From contig CAKQQY010000024.1 in assembly GCA_934271245.1 (NCBI GenBank), positions 1 through 27,916 on the forward strand: DNA of 27,916 nucleotides, read 5' to 3'. The notes under the pieces are model-generated. The model made no database searches, was not told the origin of the DNA, and saw only the letters and a list, made by a program, of their open reading frames with translations. The DNA comes from an uncultured Clostridia bacterium (lineage in GTDB: Bacteria > Bacillota > Clostridia > Christensenellales > Borkfalkiaceae). Both the position numbers and the translations under genes were made by a program. Below, piece after piece: positions 7,993 through 26,237 of the stretch (its first letter is position 1; every line of letters starts with the position of its first letter).

Positions 7993-8826
7993 ATGGCTTG
8001 TTATTCTGGCACTCATTCGCATCGTTATGGTACTAATGGTAGTGAAAATAATCCTAACTGCGAGTTTGGTTGTCAAGGTAGTTGTGGTAATGCTTGTTTA
8101 AGCGGATCAGATAATACATCTTGCACAGTTTGTAAAAACGATTGTGAAGCTGGCTGTGGCAATTGTAATACCTTATGTGGCCCTTAGCCCAGTTGCGATA
8201 CACTATGCAGCGGCGGATGCACTGGTGCATGTGAAGCTGGATGTTCAACAGGTTGTTCTGGCGGATGCAGTGGCGATTGTCAAAGTGGATGCTCAGGCTC
8301 TTGTTCTGGTGGCTGTCAAGGGACTTGTATATCTGCTTGTGCTTAGAATTGCGCGGGTGGATGTACTAATAGCTGTGTTGGCACTTGTAATTATGGATGT
8401 TCCAGTGATGAGGTAAATGATTTATATTTAAATCTTCATTTATCACGTATTGCAGAAAGTGATGATATAAATACTATTAAAAAAATTATTTATAGATTAT
8501 TTGAAAATCTTCAAAAAAGCACTATCTCTAATGGTGATGAAAAATATATAAATGAATTTGGAGGAGACGATCCAATAGGCCTTGTAGCTGACTGGGAAGG
8601 CTGGATGGCCGATGGCACAGCTACATTCTCAATGCTGTTGGATAAAACATTTGAAGCTATTATTAATAACTTAAATACTCTTAATAAAGGCCGAGTAGAA
8701 ATTGATCAAAACAAAATGGCACCAATCAAAATTTGGAAAGACTCTATATCTGGTGAACAATTAAATACAGTTGATCGTGATGCGGCGCTTTATTGGATTG
8801 AATGTCTTAAAAAAATATATGAATAG
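7993..8826 (+). CDS. CXXX-repeat (Cys every 4th residue) protein with C-terminal globular domain, module 1 (2 TAG = Gln)
   Basis: Example repeat: CSGGCTGACEAGCSTGCSGGCSGDCQSGCSGSCSGGCQGTC. TAGs at 8185 and 8344. AGGAGG RBS. Starts MAC, as does the paralog. Confidence 0.7.
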
Positions 8827-8845
8827 GTTATGCCAGTAAAATAAT

Positions 8846-8874
8846 TTGATAATCCTCCGATTTTATGATATAAT
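8846..8874 (+). promoter_or_regulatory. Sigma-70-type promoter TTGATA-17-TATAAT
   Basis: Canonical spacing. Lies upstream of the 8902 ORF. Confidence 0.45.
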
Positions 8875-8901
8875 AAAAATAAAAAAAGGAGGATTTTTCA
8901 T

Positions 8902-9342
8902 TTGATTGGAGAACCTATTTTTGATTACAATAAAGAAACTGGTGAAACCAGTTGTATAATTTCAGATGGTTAGAATATTTTTTATGGTATTTCTAAATGC
9001 CATCCAGAAGATAAAGAATTTTAGAGTGAATTCACAGGTTGTGAGATTGCAGAGCGCCGAGCGCGCATTAAAATTTTGCAACACATTAAAAATAATCAAA
9101 TCATTCCGCAAATTCAAGCTTATGAACATTTAATTAGCACTATGTTAAATAGCAAGCAATTAAATCCGCAATCTTATGAATTTAAACGTATTAAGGCCGA
9201 ATATGATAATTTACTTGATGAATATACTAAAATTAAAAATAATATTAAGTATCGTCAAGGTAAATTAAAAGATTACATTAATGATAAAGACAAGATGAAT
9301 AAGTATATTAAATTGCGCCAGGAGAAGAAAAATGATCGTTGA
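8902..9342 (+). CDS. Hypothetical protein (TTG start, 2 TAG = Gln)
   Basis: Continuous 147-codon frame only if TAGs at ~8971 and ~9022 are read through. AGGAGG RBS sits 9 nt upstream of the TTG. Motif SKCHPEDKEF...GCEIAERRA. Confidence 0.4.
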
Positions 9343-9505
9343 TGATTATATAATGGCTTAGATTGCACAAAATGAAAATTATAAGCCTACCTTGACGGAT
9401 TTGGGTATTTCAATTTATAATTCTGATGGAACATTAAAATCTACTAAATAGATTTTAAAAGAATTATCAGAAATATGGACCGATCCAGATAATTTATTTA
9501 CTTAA
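9332..9505 (+). CDS. Small hypothetical protein (2 TAG = Gln)
   Basis: ATGA overlap with the upstream gene. 57 codons. Confidence 0.3.
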
Positions 9506-9766
9506 TTTTTTATTATTAATAGGAATAATCCTTAGAAGGAGTTGGTTTTATTATAGTTTATTTTATTTTAGGTATAATATTTGCCAGCGTTGGAATGACA
9601 TTATTAGATTTTATTTCTGCGTTAATAGCAAATTTCGCCGAATTGGTTAAAGGCTGGTTTTCTGTGAAAATTTCATAGTATAATCGCCAAATCACAAATT
9701 TGAATGAAATGGATGAAGGCCCGCGGGCTATCGGTTTTTCAATACCATAGGAAGACGAGGTTGAAT

Positions 9767-10601
9767 ATGAAGATGATGAATAACTATTATGATACGTGTA
9801 GCTTGTTGATAAAGGGCAAAGATATAAAAAAAGATGAGCATATTTTAATTTCTTCAATTACTATTGATGAATTAGAAAATATAAAAACATCTGCAAATAA
9901 AGATGCAGATGTAAAATATACAGCTCGTCAGCTCTTGCGTAATATCAATGCAAATCCTGATATTTATTAGGTATTAATTTATAAAGAAAAAATGATTAAG
10001 CCTATTCAACGATTAGATTTATCAATAACTAATGATACAAAAATATTAGCTACGGCATTAGACTTCAATAAACATAATAAAACTCATCCCATTGATAATT
10101 TTATTACTAATGATTTAACTCTTAAATGTATCGCACGATTATTTCTATCTAACGTATCTTCATTAGAAGAAGGGGACCAAGAGCCATACACTGGTTACAT
10201 TGAGAAAACAATCTCGCAAGAAGAATTGATTAAATTTTATAATAATATTGGAGAAAATCAATATAATTTATTAAATGGTCAATATTTAATTCTACGTGAT
10301 GAAGAAGGTAATTTACTTGATGTAAGATGCTGGATGGATGATACACATAGATATCTTAATTCTAAGCCTATTGAATCAAAATGGTTTGGTAAAGTATCTC
10401 CATATAAAGGTGATGTGTATCAAAAATGCGCAATTGATAGCCTTGTAAATAATCAACTTACAGTATTTAGAGGCGGCGCCGGCGTAGGTAAATCCTTGCT
10501 CGGCCTTACTTATTTGTTCTCTCTATTGGAACAAGGTAAAATTGATAAAATTTATATGTTCTGTAATCCAATAGCTACCAGAGATAGTGCGAAGCTTGGC
10601 T
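9767..10601 (+). CDS. phoH: PIN-PhoH (PhoH2/YlaK-like) ATPase, exon 1 (1 TAG = Gln at 9968)
   Basis: N-terminal PIN-like YYDTCSLL...ITIDELENIK. Walker A GGAGVGKS. Ends ...SAKLG at a U, followed by a P1 pairing partner (GGGTCAAG) in the intron. Confidence 0.75.
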
Positions 10602-11901
10602 TAATCCATAGATAAGGGTCAAGTAAAACCTCGTGAATTGCTGGGACCTCCTTAAGATTTATTAACTACAACATAAGGATGAAATAAGCCTAAGTGTGAA
10701 TGTCTGAAAATAATAAATATTGGACAATCAGCAACCAAGCCCTGAATAGGGGAAGGCTCATCGACTATCGAAATCACATAGAAATATGGAAGAGAGTAGA
10801 GTAGGGCATAGCCCGAAGCGCGAGGGATTTAAACTGAAAAATTTTGGACAAAAAGTGAAAAATTATTTTCTCCAATTTTTAATAATAATAGAAAATAATA
10901 AAGGAGAAAATAATTTATGGATCAAGAAATTATTAATAAATATTTATCGGGATATTCAATAAGCAAATTATTATTAGAATATCCTACTTATAATAGAAGA
11001 TAGATTAATAAGTTATTTCGAGAAAATCAAATAACTATTAGAGGCGGAAGAAAAAAACGTGAATGGACAGAACAAGACAAAAAAGAAATCGAGCAAATGA
11101 TTGAAGATGGAGCATTTATAAAAGATATTAGTAAAAAATTTAAATGCAGCAAAGAAACATTAACTATAAAAATGGAAGAGTGGGGCATTAAATTAAAAAC
11201 TAAAAGTCATATAAATAGATGTATTAAACAAGATTATTTTTCAATTATAGACGCTCCTGAAAAAGCATACTGGTTAGGATTTTTATTTACTGATGGAAGT
11301 GTAGGATACATAAGAAATAGCAAACGTATTCGTCTTCAATTACAAGAAAAAGATTTAGAAATATTAGAACAATTCAAGAAAGATTTAAGTATAGAAACTA
11401 AAATTATTTATGATCGACGTCCTAATAGTGTATGTTGTTCTGTTGAATTTATATGTAGTTAGATTTTTGATGATTTAGGAAAATATAATATTATTCCTAA
11501 TAAAACTTATTTAACTTCTCATATTCCGTATGAAAAAATACCTCAAGAGTATTGGCCAGCATTTGCATTGGGCTTATTAGATGGTGATGGAAGCATTTTT
11601 GTAAGTAAAAATTGTAGCACAGATGTATCTATTAATTATACTGCTTATCATGAAAACGAAGTAGAAGATTTTCAAAATTTAATAAATTTTATAGCTAATA
11701 TAAATCATAAAAATAAAAATTTTTATACTTCAGCTTGGCATACTCAATGGAGAGGTCGTCTTCAAGTTTTAAAAATTCTTGATATTTTATACAATAATTG
11801 TCCAAGACATTTACAACGTAAATATGATATATACTTACGTTTAAAAAATAGTTTAAATTAAGATATAGTCAGTTTTATAGTGAAAGCTATAAAGTTTAAC
11901 G
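10602..11901 (+). mobile_element. Group I intron (~1300 nt) carrying a LAGLIDADG homing endonuclease ORF
   Basis: Exon 1 plus exon 2 give the contiguous PhoH motif KLGFYPGD, matching PhoH KLGFLPGD. The 5' exon ends in U paired to G in the IGS (CTTGGCT : GGGTCAAG). A P10-type pairing lies just upstream (GATAAG : TTTATC). The intron ends in G. A ~310 nt structured non-coding core precedes the ORF. Confidence 0.7.
10917..11862 (+). CDS. Double-motif LAGLIDADG homing endonuclease (intron-encoded; 2 TAG = Gln)
   Basis: Motif 1 WLGFLFTDGSV and motif 2 ALGLLDGDGSI. N-terminal HTH-like repeats. AAGGAG RBS. TAGs at 11001 and 11460. Confidence 0.8.
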
Positions 11902-12317
11902 TTTATCCTGGGGACAAGGACCTTAAGCTTCTTGATTCACAAATTGGCAATTTTCTTATAAGTAAATTTGGTGATAGAAATGCTGTTGAAGATTTAATTG
12001 CAGATGGTAAAATAATTCTTGTTCCGACGGCAGATTGCCGCGGTATGGATATTACAAATAATAGTGGAGTATATATTACAGAAGCACAAAATTCTACTAT
12101 CGATCTAATGAAATTAATGGTTCAACGCATTGGTGAAAATACCAAATGCGTAATTGAAGGCGATGATAAAACACAAGTTGATTTAATCTCTTATTCAGGC
12201 AATAATAATGGATTAATGAGATTATCAGAAGTATTTAGAGGACAACCTTATTATGGTGAAGTAACTCTTAAAAATTGTTATCGCTCTGAATTGGCTAAAC
12301 AAGCAGAATTAATGTAA
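11902..12317 (+). CDS. phoH: PIN-PhoH ATPase, exon 2
   Basis: VIEGDDKTQVDL matches PhoH ITGDxTQIDLP. IDLMKLMVQRIGENTK matches PhoH IEQMKMFLTRIGFNSK. C-terminal LKNCYRSELA. Confidence 0.75.
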
Positions 12318-12348
12318 GAGGAGAGGGGAAACCCTCTTCTCTTTTCTA
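12318..12348 (+). terminator. Terminator-like hairpin after phoH
   Basis: GAGGAGAGGG-GAAA-CCCTCTTCTC followed by a T-run. Confidence 0.5.
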
Positions 12349-12374
12349 TATCTTAAGAGGAAGGAGATAAAAAT

Positions 12375-12508
12375 ATGGCTTTTAAAATGAGAACAACTCG
12401 TCCAGAAGCCGGTAATAAATATTATATTACTAAAAATAATGGTGGATACTCTTATGCAATTAAGGGTAATCCAACAGATAAGCAAAATGATGTCTTGAGC
12501 AACTGCGT
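12375..12508 (+). CDS. Endolysin exon 1 (start of CHAP domain, includes the candidate catalytic Cys in SNCVG)
   Basis: AAGGAG RBS. ...LSNCVG resembles the CHAP GQCTW(Y) segment. The frame then hits TAA and 280 nt of non-coding sequence, after which the CHAP domain resumes. Junction is uncertain by a few nt. Confidence 0.6.
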
Positions 12509-12787
12509 GGGGTAAAAATACTATGCCCATAACTCACTATATCGGTTAAAGGGTGGAGACACTTCAGACCGAGGTAAGACTCTTAATTGAGAAACCTTAA
12601 CGACTGCGGGATAATAATAGTAATATTATTATTGAAGTGAGTTCTTCCAATAGGAAGTAATATACAGTCTGAACTATGGCTATAATCTAACTATGAAACC
12701 ATAGAGGTAGGATTAACGTCCTATCCGCCTTATATTTAAGGTCTTAAAGTAACAGAATGACGCATACGGTAGGTTCAATGAAATCGG
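12509..12787 (+). ncRNA. ORF-less group I-like intron (~279 nt) interrupting the endolysin CHAP domain
   Basis: Exon 1 and exon 2 are in the same frame, and the interval length is a multiple of 3. The best junction ends the exon at U and the intron at G, giving ...SNCVGYGYCKYL... No ORF. Contains an element similar to group I R/S motifs (CAGTCTGAACTATGG). Confidence 0.5.
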
Positions 12788-13901
12788 CGGCTATGGATAT
12801 TGTAAATATTTAAGTCCAGTTAATGCAGAACGCTTCCCGCAATATAACAATACTGGTATACCAATGGGTGATACCCCTAAACTTGGCGCGTGTATGGTAT
12901 GGCAGGGCGGACCAACATTACAAAGTGGTGATGGCGTTGGCCATGTGGCTATTGTTGAAAAAGTAATCAGTTCTACAGAAGTAATAACATCTGAAAGCGG
13001 TTGGGGCAGTAAGAACCCCTTCTGGACAGCAACACGCAAAAAAGGAAATGGTAACTGGGGAGCTGGCTCTGGCTATAAATTTCTTGGTTTTATATATAAT
13101 CCAGCAGTAAAGGATGATGATATTGTGAGTGATCAATATGGGTTTGGCGCTACCAATAGTCCATTAATAAATTATACGTAGATTAGCCCAAATCGCACCA
13201 GTCCACGCACTCATGTAATTGATACAGTCACTATACACTGTGTAGTTGGGCAATGTTCTGTTGAAACTCTTGGAAGTATATTTGCGCCAACAAATAAATA
13301 GGCTTCATCTAACTATGGCATTGGCCCAGATGGCCGAATTGGTATGTATGTAGAGGAAAAAGATCGGTCTTGGTGCTCTTCTAATGGAGCTAATGACGAT
13401 AGAGCAATCACTATTGAAGTTGCCAGCGATACTACTTCGCCATATAAAGTAACTGATAAAGCATATAATGCTCTTATTAAATTACTCGCTGATATTTGTT
13501 AGCGTAATAATATTAAATCACTTAAATGGAAAGCTGATAAAAGCTTAATCGGCCATCCAGAAGAACAGAATATGACTGTTCATAGATGGTTTGCGCATAA
13601 AACTTGCCCTGGTGATTACTTATATAATAAGCATTATGAAATTGCTGAAAAAGTAAATGAATTACTTGGTGTAGAGGAGGATGATGATATGACTCAGGAA
13701 AGATTTAATGAAATGATGGATAACTACATGAAAGAGCGCGCTGAATTAGATCCTAGTAAATGGTCTGCGCAGGCAAGAGCTTGGGCTGAAAGTAATGGTC
13801 TAATTAATGGTGATGCTCAAGGACGCACTATGTATAAAAAATATATGACGCGCGAAGAGGTTATCACTGTCTTATATCGTGCTATGAATAAGGGGAATTA
13901 A
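12788..13901 (+). CDS. Endolysin exon 2: rest of CHAP peptidase, Amidase_2 (PGRP-type N-acetylmuramoyl-L-alanine amidase), and C-terminal domain (3 TAG = Gln)
   Basis: CHAP: NAERF...TPKLGACMVWQGG...GHVAIVEKV...SESGWG. Amidase_2: THVIDTVTIHCVVG...GIGPDGRI...NDRAITIEVA...WFAHKTCPG. TAGs at 13179, 13299 and 13500 join three track ORFs. Confidence 0.75.
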
Positions 13902-13902
13902 A

Positions 13903-14355
13903 ATGTATAGTAAGTAGAGAAAACCTAAAAGAGAATATTCTAAAGGCTTACTTATTCAAGAGTCAGTATTGATTTGGATTACAAGCTTATTATATATTGC
14001 CTTAGCATTTTTCTGTATATTGTAGGGCTATACAGGTTCACTACCTTGGATTACTGCTTCAGCCTCATTACCTTGGGCGGCCTATGGTGTTAGCCAAGTA
14101 TTTTATTATAAAAAAAGTATGCTTGAAAATACCAAAGGTGGTATTAAATATGATACAGTAATGAAAGAATTAGAGGATTAGTTAGAGAAATATTTGAATA
14201 TGACATATGGTAACAGTGAGGATTATAATGATTTAATTAAGGAATTAATTAAAAATAATACTTCGTCTTCAACAACTTCTTCTACTAATAATGATACCAA
14301 AATTTTTACAGAAACGCAAATTTCAAATGAATTAAACGTTGATTATGGAATTTGA
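13903..14355 (+). CDS. Putative holin (two predicted TM helices; 3 TAG = Gln, first at codon 5)
   Basis: Hydrophobic segments LIWITSLLYIALAFFCIL and LPWITASASLPWAAYGV, then a polar C-terminal tail. Immediately downstream of the endolysin. Confidence 0.5.
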
Positions 14356-14380
14356 CTTTTACCTCCTTATATTATATAAT
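14352..14380 (+). promoter_or_regulatory. Sigma-70-type promoter TTGACT-17-TATAAT
   Basis: Canonical hexamers and spacing, upstream of the ORF at 14410. Confidence 0.5.
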
Positions 14381-14409
14381 ATATATATAATATAAGGAGG
14401 AATTTTTCT

Positions 14410-14907
14410 ATGAAGGATATAAGAAAAAAAATGAATTATTCCATTGAAATAATTAATGCAATAGAACATAATGATATCAATTAGAGTGATGCATTAATTA
14501 GGTTATTTGATAATTTACCCAATGATGAAAAATTTAATGTAGATAATATGCTTTTAATGTATTTTAGGAATATATTTTTTAATAAAAAATTTGAAATGTT
14601 AAATGAAACATTTTATTATTTTTTAGAAAATTTAAAAACATTTAAGCATGAAAATATTCATTTGTATTATTCTATTTGGTATAATATTGCTACTTCTCAT
14701 CCTACTAATACTTATAATTTAAATAATTTAGTCGCATTGTTAGAGGCTCGACCTGATATAGTCAATTGCTTGAATGATTATGATTTCCAATGTCTTATTT
14801 CTACTCTGGTATGTCAAGATAAAATTGAGTTAGTTAATCGTGTCAATAGGATAATGCATGGATAGGCTAATGAAAATCAACCTATGGAAAGTGAGCAATA
14901 CATTTAA
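14410..14907 (+). CDS. Hypothetical protein, first gene of CXXX-repeat module 2 (2 TAG = Gln)
   Basis: AAGGAGG RBS. TAGs at 14482 and 14863. No recognisable motif. Confidence 0.45.
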
Positions 14908-15176
14908 TGATTAAATATATTCCAATAGAACATGAAGAAGCAGTTGAAGCTTGTCGTTTATATCATGAATATAATGCTTACAAAGGCATTATGAGAAGAT
15001 TAAATATATTAAATATATCTTCTGAATTAAAAATAACTTATAAATTAAAATATTTTGATGCTCTTCTCAAAAGAGATTTATTTAATAAACATTTTTGCGC
15101 AAAATATTTAAATCCAGAAGATACATTAGATTTTAGAATTGATATAGCTAATGATTTATTAATATATGGAGAATAA
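14907..15176 (+). CDS. Small accessory protein of CXXX-repeat module 2
   Basis: Homologous to the 6440 ORF (IKYIPIEHEE vs ILRIPIEEKD). Overlaps the upstream stop by 1 nt. Confidence 0.5.
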   Translation: MIKYIPIEHEEAVEACRLYHEYNAYKGIMRRLNILNISSELKITYKLKYFDALLKRDLFNKHFCAKYLNPEDTLDFRIDIANDLLIYGE

Positions 15177-15179
15177 TAA

Positions 15180-16493
15180 ATGCTAAAGAACCAATATGAT
15201 TATATAGATTTTTATTATATGATTTATGGCTTAGATGCCGTTTCAGCTTATCAGACACATTATATTAAAAATATTACATTCCAAGTTACAGAAGATTGTA
15301 ATTTAGGATGTTCTTATTGTTATCAAATTTGTAAATCTAAAAATAAAATGACATTTGATACAGCAAAGAAAATTATTGATTATTTATTTATAGAACGAGA
15401 AAATCCTCAATCAGAATTCTGTGAAGAAAAGACCAAAGGATTTGTATTTGATTTTATAGGCGGAGAACCGTTTCTTGAGATTGATTTAATTGAGCAAATA
15501 TGTGATTATTTTGAAGAAAAGCTTCTTCAATATCCAGATAGTCCATGGATTATAAATCATGCTTATAGTTTTTCTACTAATGGCACATTGTATTTTACTC
15601 CAAAAGTGCAACATTATATTAATAAGTATAGAGAATATTTAAGCATTAGTGTTACTATTGATGGTTGTAAAGAATTACATGATCAATGTAGAGTATTTAA
15701 AGGAACTAATAAAGGTAGTTACGATATAGCTATTCAAGCGGCATTAAATGAGCTACGCAATAATCACAATGGAGCAACTAAAATTACTATGGCTCCAGCT
15801 AATATAAAGTATGTGGCCGATGGTCTTATTAATATGCTATCTCTTGGATTTACTATTATCAATATTAATTGTGTATTTGAAGAAGGATGGCAATTATCAG
15901 ATGCTCAAGAACTATATAATCAAATGAATATTGTTAGTAAATATTTAATTGATAATAATTTAAATAATAAAGTTTATATTGCAATTTTTGATGCTGGTAA
16001 ATATAGACCCATTAGTGAAGATACACTTGCCCATAATTGGTGTGGAGTTTCTAGTAGAACTATGACAGCATTTAATTATAAAGGTGATATGTATCCCTGT
16101 ATTAGATTTATGGAAAGCTCAACTGGTCATAATGTTGAACCATTTATTGTTGGTAATATTGAACATGGATTATGTGGAACTCCAGAAGAAAAAGAAAGAT
16201 ATGAAAAAGTGTCTTCATTGACCATAGAAAGTATGTCTCCTCAAAAATGTATTGATTGTCCTATCGGAGGAGGATGTGCCTGGTGTACTGGTTATTGTTA
16301 TCAACGAGGAGATATTGAGCATAAAACATTATTTATTTGTCAAATGTATAAAGCTCAAGCATTAGCGTGTAAAAAATATTATCATGATATTAAAGATTGG
16401 GAGACCTATGATAAAATAAATATACCTGATGAAATGGCCTTAGAAATTATTTCTCAGGATGAATGGAATAAATTTAATAAGAAGGAGGAATAA
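15180..16493 (+). CDS. Radical SAM/SPASM peptide maturase, CXXX-repeat target family, paralog 2 (no TAG)
   Basis: CNLGCSYCYQ, GGEPFLE, SPASM cluster CIDCPIGGGCAWCTGYCYQ. Paralog of 6695..7957. Confidence 0.9.
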   Translation: MLKNQYDYIDFYYMIYGLDAVSAYQTHYIKNITFQVTEDCNLGCSYCYQICKSKNKMTFDTAKKIIDYLFIERENPQSEFCEEKTKGFVFDFIGGEPFLEIDLIEQICDYFEEKLLQYPDSPWIINHAYSFSTNGTLYFTPKVQHYINKYREYLSISVTIDGCKELHDQCRVFKGTNKGSYDIAIQAALNELRNNHNGATKITMAPANIKYVADGLINMLSLGFTIININCVFEEGWQLSDAQELYNQMNIVSKYLIDNNLNNKVYIAIFDAGKYRPISEDTLAHNWCGVSSRTMTAFNYKGDMYPCIRFMESSTGHNVEPFIVGNIEHGLCGTPEEKERYEKVSSLTIESMSPQKCIDCPIGGGCAWCTGYCYQRGDIEHKTLFICQMYKAQALACKKYYHDIKDWETYDKINIPDEMALEIISQDEWNKFNKKEE

Positions 16494-16495
16494 TT

Positions 16496-17161
16496 ATGGC
16501 TTGTGTTACTGGTGATACTTGTACTGGTACAAGTTATAAAGCTGGTGATTGTTCAGTTGGTGGATGTATTTCATCTTGTTCTGCTTGTAGTAGTGTATGT
16601 GGAAATACTTGCACTGGTGACTGCGAAAATGGTTGTTAGAATACTTGCATAAGAGGATGCGGTAGTTCTTGTGGTGGCTGTGGAAGCAGTTGCTCTGGTG
16701 GCTGTGATGGCACTTGTAGCGGTAGTTGCACTGGTTGTTCAGGCACTTGTAGTGGTTATTGTGGTGATGGATGCTCCGGCAGTTGCGGGAGTAGTTGTTC
16801 TACTAATTGCACTAATACATGCACTGGAACATGTGCGAATGGTTGTAATACAACATTATTCAATTCTGCCTATGCTAATTTAGTATTAAATGATATTATA
16901 TTAGATGAAGATATAACTACAATAGTGGATTGGATTAAACGCGAAGGTAGCTTAAAAGGTGTTGCTATGGCTTCTCCAGAAGTAACAGTTGGAGAATCAG
17001 TTCCAGTCTTATATCAAGCATTTAATTCAATAATGGCTAATTTGCAGGCAATGGGCCAAAGCTTATCTTACACACCTGTTACTGGTAATGATATTAAGAA
17101 AGCATCTGTCCAAGAGTATATAGATAAAGCAAAAGTAATATATGAAACTATGTTACCTTAA
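16496..17161 (+). CDS. CXXX-repeat protein with C-terminal globular domain, module 2 (1 TAG = Gln)
   Basis: CGSSCGGCGSSCSGGCDGTCSGSCTGCSGTCSGYCGDGCSGSCGSSC. TAG at 16637. AAGGAGG RBS. Confidence 0.7.
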
Positions 17162-17183
17162 TTGAGATAAAGGAGAAAAATAA

Positions 17184-17471
17184 ATGACATATTATATTGA
17201 TATTCCAAAAGAGTATTTGGATGAATTGAAAGATAGTTATTTTGAAAGTGAAGCATATAAAGACATTCTGGCCGAAATTGCTGTGCGCGATCGGGCCTGT
17301 GAAAATAAAACACTTGAAAATTTAACTGCCTTATACAAGAACTCACTCATTCGATATACCAAGGCCAAGGCCGATTTAGAATTGGATTTCATTCGTAAAA
17401 ACTATCCTACTGTAAATAGCTGGACGGCCCATTTTGGTGATGACAAACTCACCATTGAAACGAACGATTAA
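17184..17471 (+). CDS. Hypothetical protein
   Basis: 95-codon ORF with AAAGGAG RBS. No TAG. Confidence 0.45.
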   Translation: MTYYIDIPKEYLDELKDSYFESEAYKDILAEIAVRDRACENKTLENLTALYKNSLIRYTKAKADLELDFIRKNYPTVNSWTAHFGDDKLTIETND

Positions 17472-17473
17472 AA

Positions 17474-17510
17474 AATAATAGGGAGATAAATCTCCCTATT
17501 ATTTTTTTTG
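17474..17510 (+). terminator. Rho-independent terminator
   Basis: AATAATAGGGAGA-TAAA-TCTCCCTATTATT followed by T8. Confidence 0.7.
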
Positions 17511-17577
17511 TTATTTAAGAAAATATATGATATAATATATTATATAAAAGAAGAATATATAAGAAGAAAAATAAAAT

Positions 17578-17606
17578 TTGACAAAGGAAAATTTTTATGG
17601 TATAAT
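17578..17606 (+). promoter_or_regulatory. Sigma-70 promoter TTGACA-17-TATAAT, apparently leaderless relative to the ATG at 17612
   Basis: Perfect consensus hexamers. Only 5 nt lie between the -10 and the ATG, and there is no SD. Confidence 0.55.
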
Positions 17607-17611
17607 AAATT

Positions 17612-17848
17612 ATGAAATATGATGTATTAAGTAAAGAAGATAAAATTTTAGTATATATAAATAAAGATGTTGATGTGCAAGCTACCCGAGATATTTGGAA
17701 AAATATGTAGAGGAATTTTCCCAATAATCAAGTGATAGTTATTCATAATGCATTTATTGATAATATTAAGGTTATTCATACAGATGATCCTTATAATAAG
17801 ATATTAAATGTTTATAATCAGTGTCTTGTTAATGAGGATTATTTATGA
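17612..17848 (+). CDS. Hypothetical protein (leaderless?)
   Basis: 79-codon ORF starting 6 nt after the TATAAT. Confidence 0.4.
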
Positions 17849-17915: not shown

Positions 17916-18605
17916 AATATAAGTAGTGGTATTTATAAAATAACAAATAAAATCAATAATAAGATTTATATTGGATGTTCTAAAAATATTGAACATAGAT
18001 GGGTAGCTCATAAATCAGAATCAATTTTAGAGCAATATCCTCCTTATAATTATTCTATACATAGAGCTTTTCGTAAATATGGTATTGATAATTTTAATTT
18101 TGAAATTATTGAAATAATAAATAATGAAACTCAATTATTTGCTAGAGAAAAATACTGGATAAAATATTATGATTCATATTATAATGGTTATAATGAAACT
18201 GAAGGAGGAGACGGTGGACCTAGCTTACCATTAGAATCAAATCCTAACAGCAAACTTAAAAACGAAGATATAATTTATATAAGAACCTTATAGCTAGAGG
18301 GGAAAATGCCTTCTGAAGTTTATTCTTTATTTAGCGATAGGATTTCTCGTCGAGGATTTGATCATATTTGGAGAGGAGAAAATTGGAAAGAATTAGTACC
18401 AGAAGCGATAAAGTATGTCCACAGCAAAGAATATAAAATAGCTATTAAAAAATTTGCTAGAGAAAAACAAATAAATGAAGATAAAAAACAAATTTTTAAT
18501 GATATTAAAGAAAAGAAGCAAAAAGGATTAAAACGTATGGATGTATATGAAGAGTATAAAAATATTTATAGTTTAAGCGGTTTTAATAAGGTATGGTATA
18601 AATGA
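17916..18605 (+). CDS. GIY-YIG homing-type endonuclease (start codon unresolved; 1 TAG = Gln at 18291)
   Basis: SGIYKITNKINNKIYIGCSKNIEHRW...YN...GG. The frame opens at 17916 after a TAA and contains no ATG. Continues through the TAG into the track ORF 18306..18605. Confidence 0.55.
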
Positions 18606-19078
18606 TTATATTTGTCGATGGAGCTTGTAGTCAAAATGGTAAAGCCAATAGCAAAGGCGGATTTGGTGTAGTAGTTTTTGATGATAACAACAGACTGATT
18701 GATGCTTATGGGCATTGGGAAGAGCATACTACAAATAATATTCAAGAATTAAAAGCTGTTTTATATGCAATTTATCATTATGGTAATAAATCTATAGTAC
18801 CTATTGTATATACAGATAGCTCTTATGTTCATCAGGCATTTACAAAATGGATGTATAATTGGGCTAATAACGGATGGCTTAAAAGTGATAAAAAAGAGCC
18901 AGAAAATTTAGAATTAATTCAAACGTATTATTATTTAATTAAAAAAGGATATAGAATTGATTTACGCAAAGTAACAGGGCATTCCGGCGTCAAAGGTAAT
19001 GAATTGGCTGATATGATTGCTACTGGTAAAATTAATCCTAAAGATTTAATCAATAAGGAGGACATGAATGGCCAATAA
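18602..19078 (+). CDS. rnhA: Ribonuclease H (RNase HI-like)
   Basis: DGAC, TNNIQELKA, YTDSSYV, GHSGVKGNELADMIA. ATGA overlap with the upstream gene. Confidence 0.8.
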   Translation: MIIFVDGACSQNGKANSKGGFGVVVFDDNNRLIDAYGHWEEHTTNNIQELKAVLYAIYHYGNKSIVPIVYTDSSYVHQAFTKWMYNWANNGWLKSDKKEPENLELIQTYYYLIKKGYRIDLRKVTGHSGVKGNELADMIATGKINPKDLINKEDMNGQ

Positions 19079-20960
19079 ATTATACACAGAAGATAGTATT
19101 CAATCACTGTCGCCCCTTGAATTTACTCGACTTAGACCAGGTGTATATTGTGGCTCTACTGAATATTCAACTCAATTACTTATTGAAATTGTATCAAATG
19201 CAGTAGATGAATATTGTGCAGGTCATGGAGATACAATTAAAGTTATTACTAATGAAGATCATAGTATTGTGGTAGAGGATAATGGACAAGGTTTTATTCC
19301 AAATGCAATGCGAGAAGATGGCAAGACTATCCTTGAAGCTTCATTTAGTGTATTAAATACTTCTGGCAAATATGATGACAATGGGGTCTATCAAGGAGTA
19401 GCCCTTGGCTTGAATGGTATTGGTAGTAAATTATCCTGTTTTCTTAGCCATTGGTTAAAGGTTACTACATGGCGTGATGGATCTTATGAAGAAATTACAT
19501 TTACAGAAGGTATTCTCTCTAATAGAATAACTGGAAAATGTGAAAAAGACAAGCATGGCACTAAAGTTAATTGGTTACCAAGTGAAGAATTTTTTACTCA
19601 TACTGAAATTAATTTAAATACTATTAAACAATTATTTAAGGTTCTTGTATGCTTATGTCCTGGGTTAAAAATTGTTCTTAATGATGAAGAATATTACTCG
19701 GCCAATGGATTAACTGATTTAGTCAATGATGCTGTTAAGAAAACAGAAATTATTAATAATAGATTAATTATTAAAAAAGATGAAGGAAAAAATAAATTAG
19801 ATTTTGAATTAACTTATACTGATAATTATACTTCTACTATTGTTCCTTATGTAAATACAGGACTTACTGATAGTGGTCCTCATATTACATTAATTAAAAC
19901 TATTCTTACTCGTGAATTAAATAAATTTTTCCGTGAAAAGAAATGGTTAAAAGATAAAGAAGAAAATTTATCAGGTGAAGATTGTCAAGAAGGATTGTAT
20001 CTTGTATTTAATCTTACTACTTCTGGAGTAAGTTATGATGCTCAGACTAAGAGTAGAATTGTAAAATTAGATATGTCACCATTTACTCCTTGGATTACTG
20101 AAGGAATTCGACAATGGCTTGAACTTAATGAGAAATCAATTAAAATTATTGCTGATAAAGCATTAAATGCACGACGCGCCAGAGAAGCTGCACGTAAAGC
20201 CAGAGAAGCCGTCAGACAACCAAAAGAAAAGAAGAAACAATTCTTAAATCTTCCCAGTAAACTTGTTGATTGTTGGAGCAAAGATAGAAGTAAGTGCGAG
20301 CTGTTCGTGGTCGAGGGGGATTCAGCCGCTGGCGGTCTTGTAGAAGCACGAGATGCTGAACATATTGCTATTTTCCCTGTTAGAGGTAAAATTATTTCAA
20401 GTTATAAAAATAGTAGCGAGAAAATTTTTGCTAATCAAGAAGTAGTTAATCTTATTAAAGCTATTGGTTTAGAATTAGATAGTAAAACTAATAAATTGAT
20501 TTATGATGAAAAAAAATTACGTTATGGTAAGATTTTTTTAGCAGCAGACGCTGATCCGGATGGGGCCAGCATCAGAAACCTCTTGATTGAAATGTTCTGG
20601 TGGTTATGCCCTGAATTAATTGAAAATGGGCATTTATATACAACCATGCCACCATTATTTAGAATTACTACTAAGAAAAATCAATACATTTTTATTAAAG
20701 ATGCTATTGAATTAGAAAAATATAAAGAATTGCATAAGGGTGAAAGTTTTTTAATCAACAGAAACAAAGGCCTGGGGGAGCAAGACCCTGATGAATTAGC
20801 AGAAGCCTTATTAAATCCTGAAACAAGAAATATAGCTCAATTAGTGATTGAAGATAAAAAATCAACAGAGAATTTAATTGAAATGTTGCTTGGACCAAGT
20901 GTACCGCCAAGAAGAGCATATCTATTAGCGCATAGTGAGGAGGCAAATGACAATGATTAA
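19068..20960 (+). CDS. Type II DNA topoisomerase, ATPase/TOPRIM subunit (GyrB/ParE / T4 gp39-like)
   Basis: GHKL ATPase motifs (VDEYCAGHG, VEDNGQGFIP, LNGIGSKL), TOPRIM VVEGDSAAG, and DADPDG. AAGGAGG RBS. Confidence 0.9.
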   Translation: MANKLYTEDSIQSLSPLEFTRLRPGVYCGSTEYSTQLLIEIVSNAVDEYCAGHGDTIKVITNEDHSIVVEDNGQGFIPNAMREDGKTILEASFSVLNTSGKYDDNGVYQGVALGLNGIGSKLSCFLSHWLKVTTWRDGSYEEITFTEGILSNRITGKCEKDKHGTKVNWLPSEEFFTHTEINLNTIKQLFKVLVCLCPGLKIVLNDEEYYSANGLTDLVNDAVKKTEIINNRLIIKKDEGKNKLDFELTYTDNYTSTIVPYVNTGLTDSGPHITLIKTILTRELNKFFREKKWLKDKEENLSGEDCQEGLYLVFNLTTSGVSYDAQTKSRIVKLDMSPFTPWITEGIRQWLELNEKSIKIIADKALNARRAREAARKAREAVRQPKEKKKQFLNLPSKLVDCWSKDRSKCELFVVEGDSAAGGLVEARDAEHIAIFPVRGKIISSYKNSSEKIFANQEVVNLIKAIGLELDSKTNKLIYDEKKLRYGKIFLAADADPDGASIRNLLIEMFWWLCPELIENGHLYTTMPPLFRITTKKNQYIFIKDAIELEKYKELHKGESFLINRNKGLGEQDPDELAEALLNPETRNIAQLVIEDKKSTENLIEMLLGPSVPPRRAYLLAHSEEANDND

Positions 20961-25238: not shown

Positions 25239-26237
25239 ATGACTATAATTTTTTGTATTTTATCCTTGATACTGGGTGGAAGTATCATATATTATATTCT
25301 TCGGCCCAAGATAAAGTAGACAGAAGAATATAATCTTGAAATTGAAAAACTAAATAATGGATTAAAAGAAGAGAATAAATCATTAACAGAAAGTTAGAAA
25401 GAATTAACTACTAAAATCTGTTCTCTTAATATTACTTAGAACTCACTAATTAAAGATATTAATTATCTTGAAGATAAAAAGAAAATTCTTGATAATAATT
25501 ATAAAGAAGCCAATAAAAATGCTGAATTATATCGCCAGAAGGTAAATGATTTAGCATCTGAAAAATTTGCTCAATCGGCCGAACGTATGGCGATAGAATA
25601 CCAGTAGGCAGAAAGTAATTATCAACAAGAATATCTAAATACTATTGCCGAAGGAGCATAGGAATATACTAACCTAATCGCGCAAAAGCAAAATGAATTA
25701 CAATAGATACTTCTGGCTCTTAATGATGCTAAAGCTAAACAAGATATAATAGTTGAAGCGAATAAGCGCGTAGAAGAAATTAAATAGAAAGAACAATTTT
25801 ATAAACTTAATTTAAGTAATATTGATATTGAAGAAATTAAAAAACTTCGTTCAATTATTCCTTATTTGCGCTCGGCTGAGCCTATCAATAAGGTCATCTG
25901 GAAGGTTTATTATGAAAAACCTTATACAGATTTAGTTGGTCGAGTAATCGGACAAGGAATACACACTGGTATATATAAAATTACTAACATAGAAAATCAA
26001 AAATGTTATATAGGATAGGCAACATCACTGGCTGACCGCTGGAAATAGCATATTAAACGTGGCGTTGGTGCTGAAGCTCCCACTCGTAATAAATTATATC
26101 CAGCAATGTATGAACTCGGCCCAGAAAATTTTACATTTGAAGTATTAGAAGAATGTGAAAGAACTAAACTTGATGAACGTGAAGATTTTTGGTAGAATTT
26201 TTATTAGGCTAAAGAATTTGGATATAGTATAAAATAA
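25239..26237 (+). CDS. Membrane-anchored coiled-coil protein with C-terminal GIY-YIG/T5orf172-like nuclease domain (12 TAG = Gln)
   Basis: N-terminal TM IIFCILSLILGGSIIYYIL. Long coiled coil. C-terminal GIYKITNIENQKCYIGQATSLADRWKQHIKRG...ENFTFEVLEEC...EREDFWQ. Twelve in-frame TAGs. TATAAT lies 6 nt before the ATG. Confidence 0.5.

What the first reader, a model, noticed from the sequence alone, without database searches (positions are those of the whole stretch)
14410..17161. Second, diverged CXXX-repeat rSAM module whose maturase lacks TAG codons
This is a paralogous four-gene module: an unknown gene, a small partner, a maturase, and a 222-aa CXXX protein with a different C-terminal domain. 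The paralogs share ~50% identity over the rSAM core, so the duplication is old. The maturase here has no TAG in 437 codons, whereas paralog 1 has two. This suggests the two modules differ in their expression timing or in their dependence on the suppressor. Each CXXX protein probably has a dedicated maturase.
Basis: partly seen in the sequence, partly recalled or inferred. Interest (0 to 1): 0.7.

Follow-up and report, generated by a model that had tools for sequence, protein, structure and literature searches.

The report
Second phage Cys-repeat protein maturation cassette
A large gut phage that reads the TAG stop codon as glutamine carries a second, swappable four-gene cassette in which a radical-SAM enzyme is predicted to cross-link a cysteine-repeat protein; the enzyme gene's lack of TAG codons is real but looks incidental.

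Summary
The four tightly packed genes at 14410-17161 are real. They are a 165-aa protein, an 89-aa partner, a 437-aa radical SAM/SPASM maturase that passes the curated TIGR04115 "CXXX-repeat target" threshold, and a 221-aa target with 28 Cys, mostly spaced by four. Syntenic phages either lack exactly these four genes or carry strongly diverged versions between about 90%-identical flanks, so this is a swappable cassette. It is an old paralog of module 1 (6440-8844): the maturases are 43% identical overall and 54-56% in the core, and they sit in different clades. It is not an assembly duplicate.

Corrections:
- Maturase 1 has three in-frame TAGs, not two.
- The two targets share one homologous C-terminal helical domain.
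- The 95-aa gene at 17184-17471 is a third paralog of the small partner.

TAG encodes Gln. Maturase 2 has 0 TAG among 18 Gln codons (nominal P=0.016). Its orthologs carry 2, 3 and 6 TAGs, and two genes of the same operon contain TAG, including the substrate. The proposed difference in timing or suppressor dependence is therefore not supported. The system type is already curated and is widespread in phages of Clostridia, usually next to tail-fibre genes. Its chemistry and role are untested.

The parts
14362..14400 (+). 17-bp-stem AT-rich hairpin followed by a T-run. It marks the left edge of the cassette, and its 3' arm contains the p165 ribosome-binding site (AAGGAGG).
   Evidence: Terminator-like site; sequence. 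A hairpin with a different stem sequence sits at the same place in L005. Identity to L005 and L012 drops here.
14410..14907 (+). p165, a 165-aa accessory protein of unknown function with 2 in-frame TAGs (14482-14484 and 14863-14865).
   Evidence: No Pfam, NCBIfam or PADLOC hit. Homologs lie directly upstream of the small partner in L005, L171, L168 and L170, and about 1.2 kb upstream of the maturase in L136.
14907..15176 (+). p89, the small partner protein (89 aa, no Gln codons at all). It belongs to the roughly 90-aa family found immediately upstream of nearly every maturase of this type.
   Evidence: An iterated HMM seeded with p95-like proteins hits p89 at E=2.7e-12. The family is present in 162 of 168 loci, mostly adjacent and upstream. 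Only one near-identical homolog shares exact words with it in the 5.8e9-protein database.
15180..16493 (+). Maturase 2, a radical SAM/SPASM enzyme of 437 aa with 0 TAG among 18 Gln codons.
   Evidence: TIGR04115 score 364.6 bits against a cutoff of 350. CX3CX2C motif at C40/C44/C47 and seven invariant C-terminal Cys. Closest solved structure is chain 5WGG_A, aligned only from its residue 94.
16496..16846 (+). Target 2, N-terminal (CXXX)n core: residues 1-117 with 28 Cys and a TAG at 16637-16639 (codon 48).
   Evidence: AF2 pLDDT below 50. This is the fastest-evolving part between close relatives, about 50% identity.
16847..17161 (+). Target 2, C-terminal domain of about 104 aa forming four helices, conserved across the target family.
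   Evidence: Alignment A3. AF2 pLDDT about 85, helices 120-128, 137-153, 170-185 and 202-219. No fold match in PDB or BFVD.
17184..17471 (+). p95, a third paralog of the small partner, which I call an orphan. It shares the transcription unit but is not part of the indel cassette.
   Evidence: Conserved at 76-99% in relatives with or without module 2. Same HMM family as p89. AF2 pLDDT 91.6, topology beta-alpha-alpha-beta-beta.
17470..17507 (+). Terminator-like hairpin closing the unit p165-p89-maturase 2-target 2-p95.
   Evidence: A 12/12 promoter-like site follows at 17578-17606.
6440..6691 (+). Module 1 small partner, probably 83 aa from a GTG start, with 1 TAG.
   Evidence: hhalign of module-1-type partners against the small-partner family gives 92% probability and E=6e-7 over the full length.
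6695..7990 (+). Maturase 1 (431 aa) with three in-frame TAGs (6782-6784, 6998-7000, 7958-7960).
   Evidence: TIGR04115 score 340.4 bits with TAG read as Q. All three TAGs align with Gln in maturase 2, one of them at an invariant Gln.
7993..8844 (+). Target 1 (283 aa, 30 Cys, 3 TAG). Same architecture as target 2, with an insertion in the C-terminal domain.
   Evidence: Precomputed PF27846 hit.

Best explanation
Module 2 is a self-contained maturation cassette for a Cys-repeat protein. It belongs to the type curated as TIGR04115 (maturase) plus PF27846 (target), and it sits in a large (about 176 kb) gut phage that decodes TAG as glutamine.

Inferred mechanism:
- The radical SAM/SPASM enzyme uses its CX3CX2C cluster to make a 5'-deoxyadenosyl radical, and uses two auxiliary clusters held by the seven C-terminal Cys.
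- It installs many intramolecular thioether (Cys-S to carbon) cross-links along the N-terminal (CXXX)n stretch of the protein encoded immediately downstream. This would turn a disordered Cys/Gly/Ser/Thr-rich segment into a rigid ladder of small rings.
- The conserved C-terminal four-helix domain of the target would act as the handle that recruits the enzyme.
- The enzyme has no fused recognition domain, so the universally associated roughly 90-aa partner (p89) is the best candidate for an in-trans adaptor.
- p165 is an optional fourth component of unknown role.

What is shown: family membership, gene order, operon-like packing, presence/absence and mosaic divergence of the cassette, and TAG=Gln.

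What is inferred: the cross-linking chemistry, the adaptor role, and late expression together with the neighbouring lysis genes.

The cassette lies in a recombination-prone slot between the holin-like gene and p95. It was not made by a recent internal duplication of module 1. The absence of TAG in maturase 2 is a strain-level accident of codon choice, not a regulatory design.
For: - Membership: TIGR04115 364.6 bits against cutoff 350. rSAM and SPASM Cys are invariant.
- Target adjacency: an adjacent ORF with at least 6 consecutive CXXX units is present in nearly all of the 80 IMG/VR loci, upstream or downstream of the maturase. At least 581 viral stretches and 6330 database proteins are related.
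- Target architecture: MAC start, (CXXX)n ending CNxGC, and a conserved C-terminal domain. AF2 gives a disordered core and a confident helical domain.
- Small partner: present in 162 of 168 loci, mostly immediately upstream of the maturase.
- No fused recognition domain: SPASM peptide-maturase profiles and chain 5WGG_A align only from their positions of about 64-111 onto residue 20-32 of maturase 2.
- Cassette nature: absent in L008, L012 and L014 with breakpoints at about 14401 and 17136. Against L005, nucleotide identity falls from about 90% to 34-65% at about 14380 and recovers at about 17200, with a conserved island at the 3' end of the maturase gene.
- Separate clades for maturase 1 and maturase 2.
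- TAG=Gln: the 3 TAGs of maturase 1 and the 2 TAGs of the L005 ortholog all fall on Gln, some of them invariant. Code 15 has been experimentally validated in gut phages (PMC9523058).
- TAG-free state not conserved: orthologs have 2, 3 and 6 TAGs.
- Chemistry precedent: PapB (second-best family hit, 156 bits) makes Cys-to-Asp/Glu thioethers (PMC12373016).
Against: - No member of TIGR04115 has been biochemically characterised as far as my searches show.
- PapB-type chemistry needs an acidic acceptor, but Asp plus Glu make up only about 6-9% of the X positions. The acceptor residue, and even the bond type, could therefore differ.
- p89 and p95 do not reach the curated TIGR04116 threshold.
- The small partner is not an RRE/PqqD-like fold, so its adaptor role is a guess.
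- 0 TAG among 18 Gln codons is nominally improbable (P=0.016). The window does contain a clear class of TAG-free genes (Band_7-like, GyrA/B, ligase), so a real difference for this strain cannot be excluded.
- The NJ tree has no bootstrap support values.
Confidence: 0.7

Rival explanations
1. The TAG-free maturase 2 can be translated before, or without, the amber suppressor. Module 2 would then be timed differently from module 1, or the enzyme would be pre-loaded before its substrate appears.
For: 0 TAG among 18 Gln codons against 22% TAG use in neighbouring genes, P=0.016. TAG-free genes in the window (GyrA/B, ligase, RNase H) are replication genes, a class that typically lacks recoded stops. 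Recoded stops are reported mainly in late structural and lysis genes (PMC10607447). The substrate has a TAG and the enzyme does not, so an 'enzyme first' order is conceivable.
Against: Orthologs of maturase 2 in the same genomic slot carry 2-6 in-frame TAGs, and their small partners carry 1-2. p165 lies upstream in the same tightly coupled unit and has a TAG at codon 25. Module 2 sits directly behind the TAG-containing endolysin and holin-like genes. The P value is uncorrected for the several genes that could have been singled out.
Confidence: 0.1
2. Module 2 was recently acquired from a phage or prophage that uses the standard code, and its maturase simply has not yet accumulated TAG codons.
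For: The cassette is an indel with sharp borders. Maturase 2 falls in a different clade from maturase 1. In L168 the related maturase and target are TAG-free, 0/13 and 0/3 Gln codons. Most family members are in standard-code Clostridia genomes, probably prophages given the tail-fibre and lysis neighbours.
Against: p165 and target 2 in the same cassette already use TAG. The closest relatives of maturase 2 whose DNA was examined (L171, L172, L005) are TAG-recoded and lie in the same slot. This argues for long residence within the recoded phage lineage.
Confidence: 0.1
3. The product is not a structural protein. It is a secreted or lysis-released antimicrobial or signalling RiPP: a giant ranthipeptide whose variable Cys-rich core is the active part and whose C-terminal domain acts as a 'follower' recognition sequence.
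For: The pattern is RiPP-like: a conserved recognition part plus a hypervariable core. The module sits next to the endolysin and holin-like genes here. The nearest enzyme families are RiPP maturases.
Against: No protease, transporter or immunity gene is seen in the cassette. Targets are 170-290 aa with no signal peptide. In several sampled (pro)phages the module follows tail-fibre, minor-tail or tape-measure genes.
Confidence: 0.15
4. The Cys repeats bind metal, or form Fe-S clusters or disulfides (metallothionein-like), and the radical SAM enzyme does something other than thioether formation.
For: Very high Cys density with small residues. The chemistry of this family is untested.
Against: The strict period of 4 and the obligatory pairing with a SPASM-type enzyme, whose relatives cross-link peptides, argue for enzymatic modification of the repeats.
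Confidence: 0.05

Closest known systems
TIGR04115 'radical SAM peptide maturase, CXXX-repeat target family', with its target family PF27846 (tSAM_targ_Cxxx_rpt) and accessory family TIGR04116 (CXXX_rpt_assoc)
   Same: Maturase 2 passes the curated threshold. The target has the CXXX periodicity and the family's C-terminal domain. A roughly 90-aa partner sits immediately upstream.
   Different: There are two modules in one genome, embedded in TAG-recoded genes. A fourth gene (p165) is not part of the curated system. The small partners p89 and p95 do not reach TIGR04116. The families are defined bioinformatically only; my paper searches found no characterised member.
PapB/PapA (freyrasin) ranthipeptide system, NF047865
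   Same: It is a SPASM radical SAM enzyme acting on repeated Cys-X3 motifs. It is the second-best family hit, at 156-171 bits. Thioethers form between a Cys and a residue C-terminal to it (PMC12373016).
   Different: The score is far below the cutoff of 340. PapB needs Asp/Glu acceptors and an RRE-bound N-terminal leader (PMC12373016). Here acidic residues are rare at the X positions, the conserved part of the substrate is C-terminal, and the enzyme lacks the N-terminal extension.
PDB chain 5WGG_A / 5WHY ('Radical SAM domain protein'). From memory, not tested here, this is CteB, the SCIFF/thermocellin maturase.
   Same: It is the only solved structure matched by sequence, E=1.5e-16, covering the rSAM core and the C-terminal Cys-rich region.
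   Different: The alignment starts at residue 94 of that chain. Its N-terminal domain (the RRE, from my own knowledge) has no counterpart in maturase 2. The substrate here is a 221-aa protein, not a peptide of about 50 aa.
Code-15 (TAG to Gln) gut phages, such as crAss-like phages and phAss-1
   Same: In-frame TAGs sit at conserved Gln positions, are concentrated in some genes including lysis genes, and are absent from replication genes (PMC9523058, PMC10607447).
   Different: No suppressor tRNA lies in the window. One with a CUA anticodon is seen near the related module in L170.

Membership tests
TIGR04115 rSAM_Cxxx_rpt (maturase) | HMM score at or above the curated cutoff (350 bits) | tested here: met
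   Maturase 2 scores 364.6 bits. Maturase 1 scores 340.4 bits with TAG read as Q, just below the cutoff.
TIGR04115 rSAM_Cxxx_rpt (maturase) | CX3CX2C radical SAM cluster motif plus a C-terminal SPASM-type Cys set | tested here: met
   C40/C44/C47 and C288, C307, C357, C360, C366, C369, C387 are invariant across 17 homologs.
TIGR04115 rSAM_Cxxx_rpt (maturase) | Adjacent gene encoding a protein with a long tandem CXXX repeat | tested here: met
   Target 2 starts 2 nt after the maturase stop. 21 of its 27 Cys spacings equal 4. The same adjacency holds in nearly all the viral loci scanned.
TIGR04115 rSAM_Cxxx_rpt (maturase) | Catalytic modification of the repeat Cys residues | not testable with these tools
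   Needs anaerobic reconstitution and mass spectrometry.
PF27846 tSAM_targ_Cxxx_rpt (target) | Match to the Pfam model | tested here: inconclusive
   The precomputed hit for target 2 is 'faint'; for target 1 it is 'weak' or 'faint' depending on the contig. PF27846 is listed for the 91%-identical P0121 and for many homologs. The local Pfam scan gave no hit at E<=1.
PF27846 tSAM_targ_Cxxx_rpt (target) | MAC start, (CXXX)n core and a conserved C-terminal domain | tested here: met
   Alignment A3 of 41 sequences. AF2 model of the 91%-identical ortholog.
TIGR04116 CXXX_rpt_assoc (small partner) | HMM score at or above the cutoff (50 bits) | tested here: not met
   p89 and p95 give no hit at E<=10. 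Two members of the same HMM-defined family give full-length hits of 15 bits, E about 0.015.
TIGR04116 CXXX_rpt_assoc (small partner) | Protein of about 90 aa encoded next to the TIGR04115 maturase | tested here: met
   p89 ends 3 nt before the maturase 2 start. The family lies adjacent and upstream in most of 162 loci.
RiPP recognition element (PqqD-like wHTH) as the fold of the small partner | Three-stranded sheet followed by three helices; structural match to PqqD/RRE | tested here: not met
PapB-family ranthipeptide maturase (NF047865) | HMM score at or above the cutoff (340 bits); acidic acceptor residue after each Cys | tested here: not met
   156 bits. Asp plus Glu make up about 6-9% of the X positions.
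Genetic code 15 (TAG = Gln) phage | In-frame TAG at positions that are Gln in homologs | tested here: met
   All 3 TAGs in maturase 1 and both TAGs in the L005 maturase fall on Gln, including invariant Q35 and Q144.
Genetic code 15 (TAG = Gln) phage | Phage-encoded suppressor tRNA(CUA) | tested here: inconclusive
   None in the window or in L001. One is present in the related recoded phage locus L170. The rest of the 176-kb genome was not available.

The most novel reading that the evidence does not exclude
The CXXX-repeat proteins may be virion (tail-fibre-region) components that a phage-encoded radical SAM enzyme staples into thioether ladders. That would be RiPP-type chemistry used to harden or diversify a phage surface protein. 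On this reading, the cassette with its hypervariable core and hypervariable small partner is exchanged between phages as an arms-race module, and this phage runs two orthogonal enzyme/adaptor/substrate sets plus a spare adaptor (p95).
Probability: 0.25. Interest if true: 0.75.

Novelty: new member of a known kind. Interest (0 to 1): 0.4.

Why it matters
The enzyme/target pair belongs to a very large, curated, but experimentally untouched family. More than 6000 related proteins and at least 581 viral stretches were found, mostly in gut Clostridia phages and prophages. Its position next to tail-fibre and lysis genes suggests that post-translational radical chemistry acts on phage proteins. This window offers two diverged, complete sets in one genome, which is a natural specificity experiment. 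It also defines the cassette borders and components precisely enough for cloning. The TAG observation itself adds little. It does show that a codon-usage oddity in one strain should be checked against orthologs before it is read as regulation.

Tried and rejected
- Assembly duplicate: rejected. Only 65-67% nucleotide identity, in patches.
- Recent internal duplication: rejected. The two maturases are in different clades, and maturase 2 is closer to other phages' maturases.
- Small partner as a bona fide TIGR04116 member: the curated threshold is not met.
- Fold of the target's C-terminal domain: Foldseek against PDB and BFVD found nothing below E=0.7.
- Word-indexed homology search for p89: only its own near-identical cluster. 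phmmer of p95 against 1.84e9 representatives: 8 hits.
- Defence-system membership: only weak viperin-like hits to the rSAM core.
- Cultured phage relatives: none close. The best hits are 35-39% identical in uncultured fecal phage contigs and 28% in SPN3US-like jumbo phages.
- Literature: no paper in the held library mentions CXXX-repeat maturases. Three look-ups for the two papers I tried by DOI or PMC id (the family-defining paper and the ranthipeptide mapping paper) found them not held.
- A suppressor tRNA in the window: none.
Full report
**Setting.** The window has about 31% G+C and all long ORFs are on the + strand. Many reading frames between about 6300 and 18600 are interrupted only by TAG. 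Reading TAG through restores full-length proteins. The exact maturase 2 protein is encoded on 19 public contigs. The longest shown is a 175,827-bp contig from a Hadza gut metagenome, and gene callers there already used read-through models. No tRNA lies in the window.

TAG encodes glutamine:
- The three in-frame TAGs of maturase 1 align with Gln in maturase 2, one at an invariant Gln of the family.
- The two TAGs of the L005 ortholog of maturase 2 fall on invariant or nearly invariant Gln.
- This is genetic code 15, which has been validated by metaproteomics in gut phages (PMC9523058).

**The observation.**
- p165 at 14410-14907, with 2 TAG.
- p89 at 14907-15176, with its start overlapping the p165 stop.
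- Maturase 2 at 15180-16493, 437 codons and no TAG.
- Target 2 at 16496-17161, 221 aa, with one TAG at codon 48.

Target 2 has 28 Cys, and 21 of the 27 spacings equal four. Target 1 has 30 Cys, with 23 spacings of four. The maturases are 43% identical overall and 54-56% over residues 29-240. DNA identity is 65-67% in patches only, so an assembly duplicate is excluded.

Two details are wrong. Maturase 1 has three TAGs, at codons 30, 102 and 422, not two. The C-terminal domains of the two targets are homologous rather than different. They align from the end of the repeats to a shared C-terminal 'IYE..(M)P' motif, with an insertion in target 1. Both targets also carry precomputed hits to the Pfam target family PF27846.

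**What the genes are.**
- *Maturase 2* scores 364.6 bits on TIGR04115, 'radical SAM peptide maturase, CXXX-repeat target family' (cutoff 350). Maturase 1 scores 340.4. The next best family is PapB, at 156-171 bits. The CX3CX2C motif and seven C-terminal Cys are invariant in 17 homologs.
- *No fused recognition domain.* Other SPASM peptide maturase profiles, and the only solved relative (5WGG), align from their positions of about 64-111 onto residues 20-32 of maturase 2. The N-terminal recognition domain of those enzymes therefore has no counterpart here.
- *The target family* has a fixed plan: a MAC start, (CXXX)n with small residues at the X positions (S/G/T dominate; Asp plus Glu about 6-9%), a terminal CNxGC, and then a conserved domain of about 100 aa.
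- *AlphaFold on a 40-sequence alignment* (91%-identical ortholog as query) leaves the repeat region below pLDDT 50. It folds the C-terminal domain as four helices at about pLDDT 85. Foldseek finds nothing similar in PDB or BFVD.

**The small partner.**
- An HMM iterated from p95-like seeds over all ORFs of 168 loci converges on a family of about 90-110 aa. It is present in 162 loci, mostly immediately upstream of the maturase, and it captures p89 at E=2.7e-12.
- The 95-aa gene just downstream of target 2 (17184-17471) is therefore a third paralog of the small partner.
- The module 1 partner is a shorter member. It probably starts at GTG 6440, giving 83 aa. hhalign gives 92% probability and E=6e-7.
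- The family touches the curated TIGR04116 model only marginally, at 15 bits for two members. p89 and p95 do not hit it at all.
- p165 has no family hit. It recurs in the same position in L005, L171, L168 and L170, and nearby in a Ruminococcus MAG. It is thus an optional fourth component, not a random neighbour.

**Cassette behaviour.**
- Syntenic large phages (L008, L012, L014; IMG/VR contigs of 104-188 kb) share the order Band_7-like gene, module 1, PIN/PhoH, endolysin, holin-like gene, p95. They lack all four genes of module 2. The breakpoints map to about 14401 and 17136.
- Other relatives have the module but in diverged form. Against L005, nucleotide identity is about 90% in the flanks. 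It collapses to 34-65% from about 14380, is 65-79% in most of the maturase, and rises to 85-91% at the maturase 3' end. It falls to 40-56% in the target and returns to over 90% at about 17200.
- In L171 the pattern is mosaic: p165 92%, small partner 56%, maturase 81-88%, target core 50%, target C-terminal domain 85%, p95 99%.
- The unit p165-p89-maturase 2-target 2-p95 is bounded by terminator-like hairpins at 14362-14400 and 17470-17507. The left hairpin has a different stem sequence at the same place in L005.
- In an NJ tree the two maturases fall in different clades. Maturase 2 is 50-53% identical to maturases of other phages. The paralogy is therefore old, or the cassette was imported.

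**The TAG question.**
- In the TAG-using block (6509-17848), TAG makes up 22 of 98 Gln codons outside maturase 2, while maturase 2 has 0 of 18. The hypergeometric P is 0.016, uncorrected.
- The window also has clearly TAG-free genes: the first long ORF, the Band_7-like gene, GyrB, GyrA and ligase. In this strain maturase 2 resembles that class.
- The feature is not conserved. Orthologs in the same slot have 3 TAGs (L171, 83% identical), 6 (L172, 71%) and 2 (L005, 70%). Their small partners also contain TAG.
- Within the window's own operon, p165 (TAG at codon 25) and the substrate (TAG at codon 48) need the suppressor.
- The module as a whole is therefore as suppressor-dependent as module 1. 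I find no support for a designed difference in timing. This fits the general report that recoded stops mark late and lysis genes (PMC10607447), since the cassette directly follows the endolysin and holin-like genes.

**Distribution and likely role.**
- The maturase family is large: 6330 proteins at E<=1e-20, at least 581 IMG/VR stretches, and 320 stretches in reference genomes. The 80 best-matching of these, the ones listed, are almost all Clostridia, with a few Bacteroidales.
- The target can lie upstream or downstream of the maturase. One locus (L061) has one maturase flanked by two targets.
- In several sampled (pro)phages, the gene just upstream of the module is a tail-fibre or minor-tail protein or follows the tape measure. 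In the large recoded phages the module sits near the lysis genes.
- I infer a late-expressed protein whose Cys ladder is cross-linked by the maturase. PapB is the chemical precedent for Cys-to-carbon thioethers (PMC12373016). The scarcity of acidic residues means the acceptor must differ.
- A virion-associated role is possible but unproven. A lysis-released RiPP-like product is the main alternative.

**Novelty.** The system type is already curated (TIGR04115, TIGR04116, PF27846). This is a new member, in a recoded phage, with two modules and an extra gene. No experimental paper on the family was found in the held library.

Noticed in passing
window 9704-12317: The PIN/PhoH-like gene is split by a LAGLIDADG homing-endonuclease ORF (10917-11861, 2 TAG). 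Relatives L008, L012 and L014 have one uninterrupted 430-aa ORF covering both halves.
   Followed up: partly
window 25239-26237: A GIY-YIG endonuclease-like ORF carries 11 in-frame TAGs among 23 Gln codons, by far the highest TAG density in the window. A second GIY-YIG ORF (17916-18605) has 1 TAG.
   Followed up: no
L006 3662-9341: In a close relative the GyrB gene is broken into several pieces separated by three GIY-YIG ORFs. In the window GyrB is intact (19068-20960).
   Followed up: no
window 14362-14400 and L005 ~2680-2725: A 17-bp AT-rich hairpin lies right after the holin-like gene, and its 3' arm contains the p165 Shine-Dalgarno sequence. L005 has a hairpin with a different stem sequence at the same place. 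It could be a terminator, an RBS-sequestering element or a recombination site.
   Followed up: partly
window 17184-17471: p95 is an orphan paralog of the small partner family, contains no Gln codon at all, and is 76-99% conserved in most relatives examined (59% in L172), including phages that lack module 2. Its partner enzyme is unknown.
   Followed up: partly
L170 12174-20147: A 20-gene tRNA array starts about 200 nt after the CXXX target in this related TAG-recoded 160-kb phage. It includes a tRNA with anticodon CUA (18778-18852), a candidate amber suppressor. L061's module is also embedded in a tRNA array.
   Followed up: no
L061 5275-8065: One maturase is flanked by two different CXXX-repeat proteins (240 and 258 aa). 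The same 185.5-kb phage has a second maturase locus (L010) with a 431-aa target carrying a long extra N-terminal region.
   Followed up: no
window 16215-16514 vs L005: The last ~280 nt of the maturase gene, its stop and the first few codons of the target gene form an island of 85-91% identity inside an otherwise 40-79% identical cassette. This suggests a recombination joint or a constrained enzyme/substrate interface.
   Followed up: partly
L170 8292-9218: A second, shorter radical SAM protein (308 aa) is encoded just upstream of the four-gene CXXX module in this relative.
   Followed up: no
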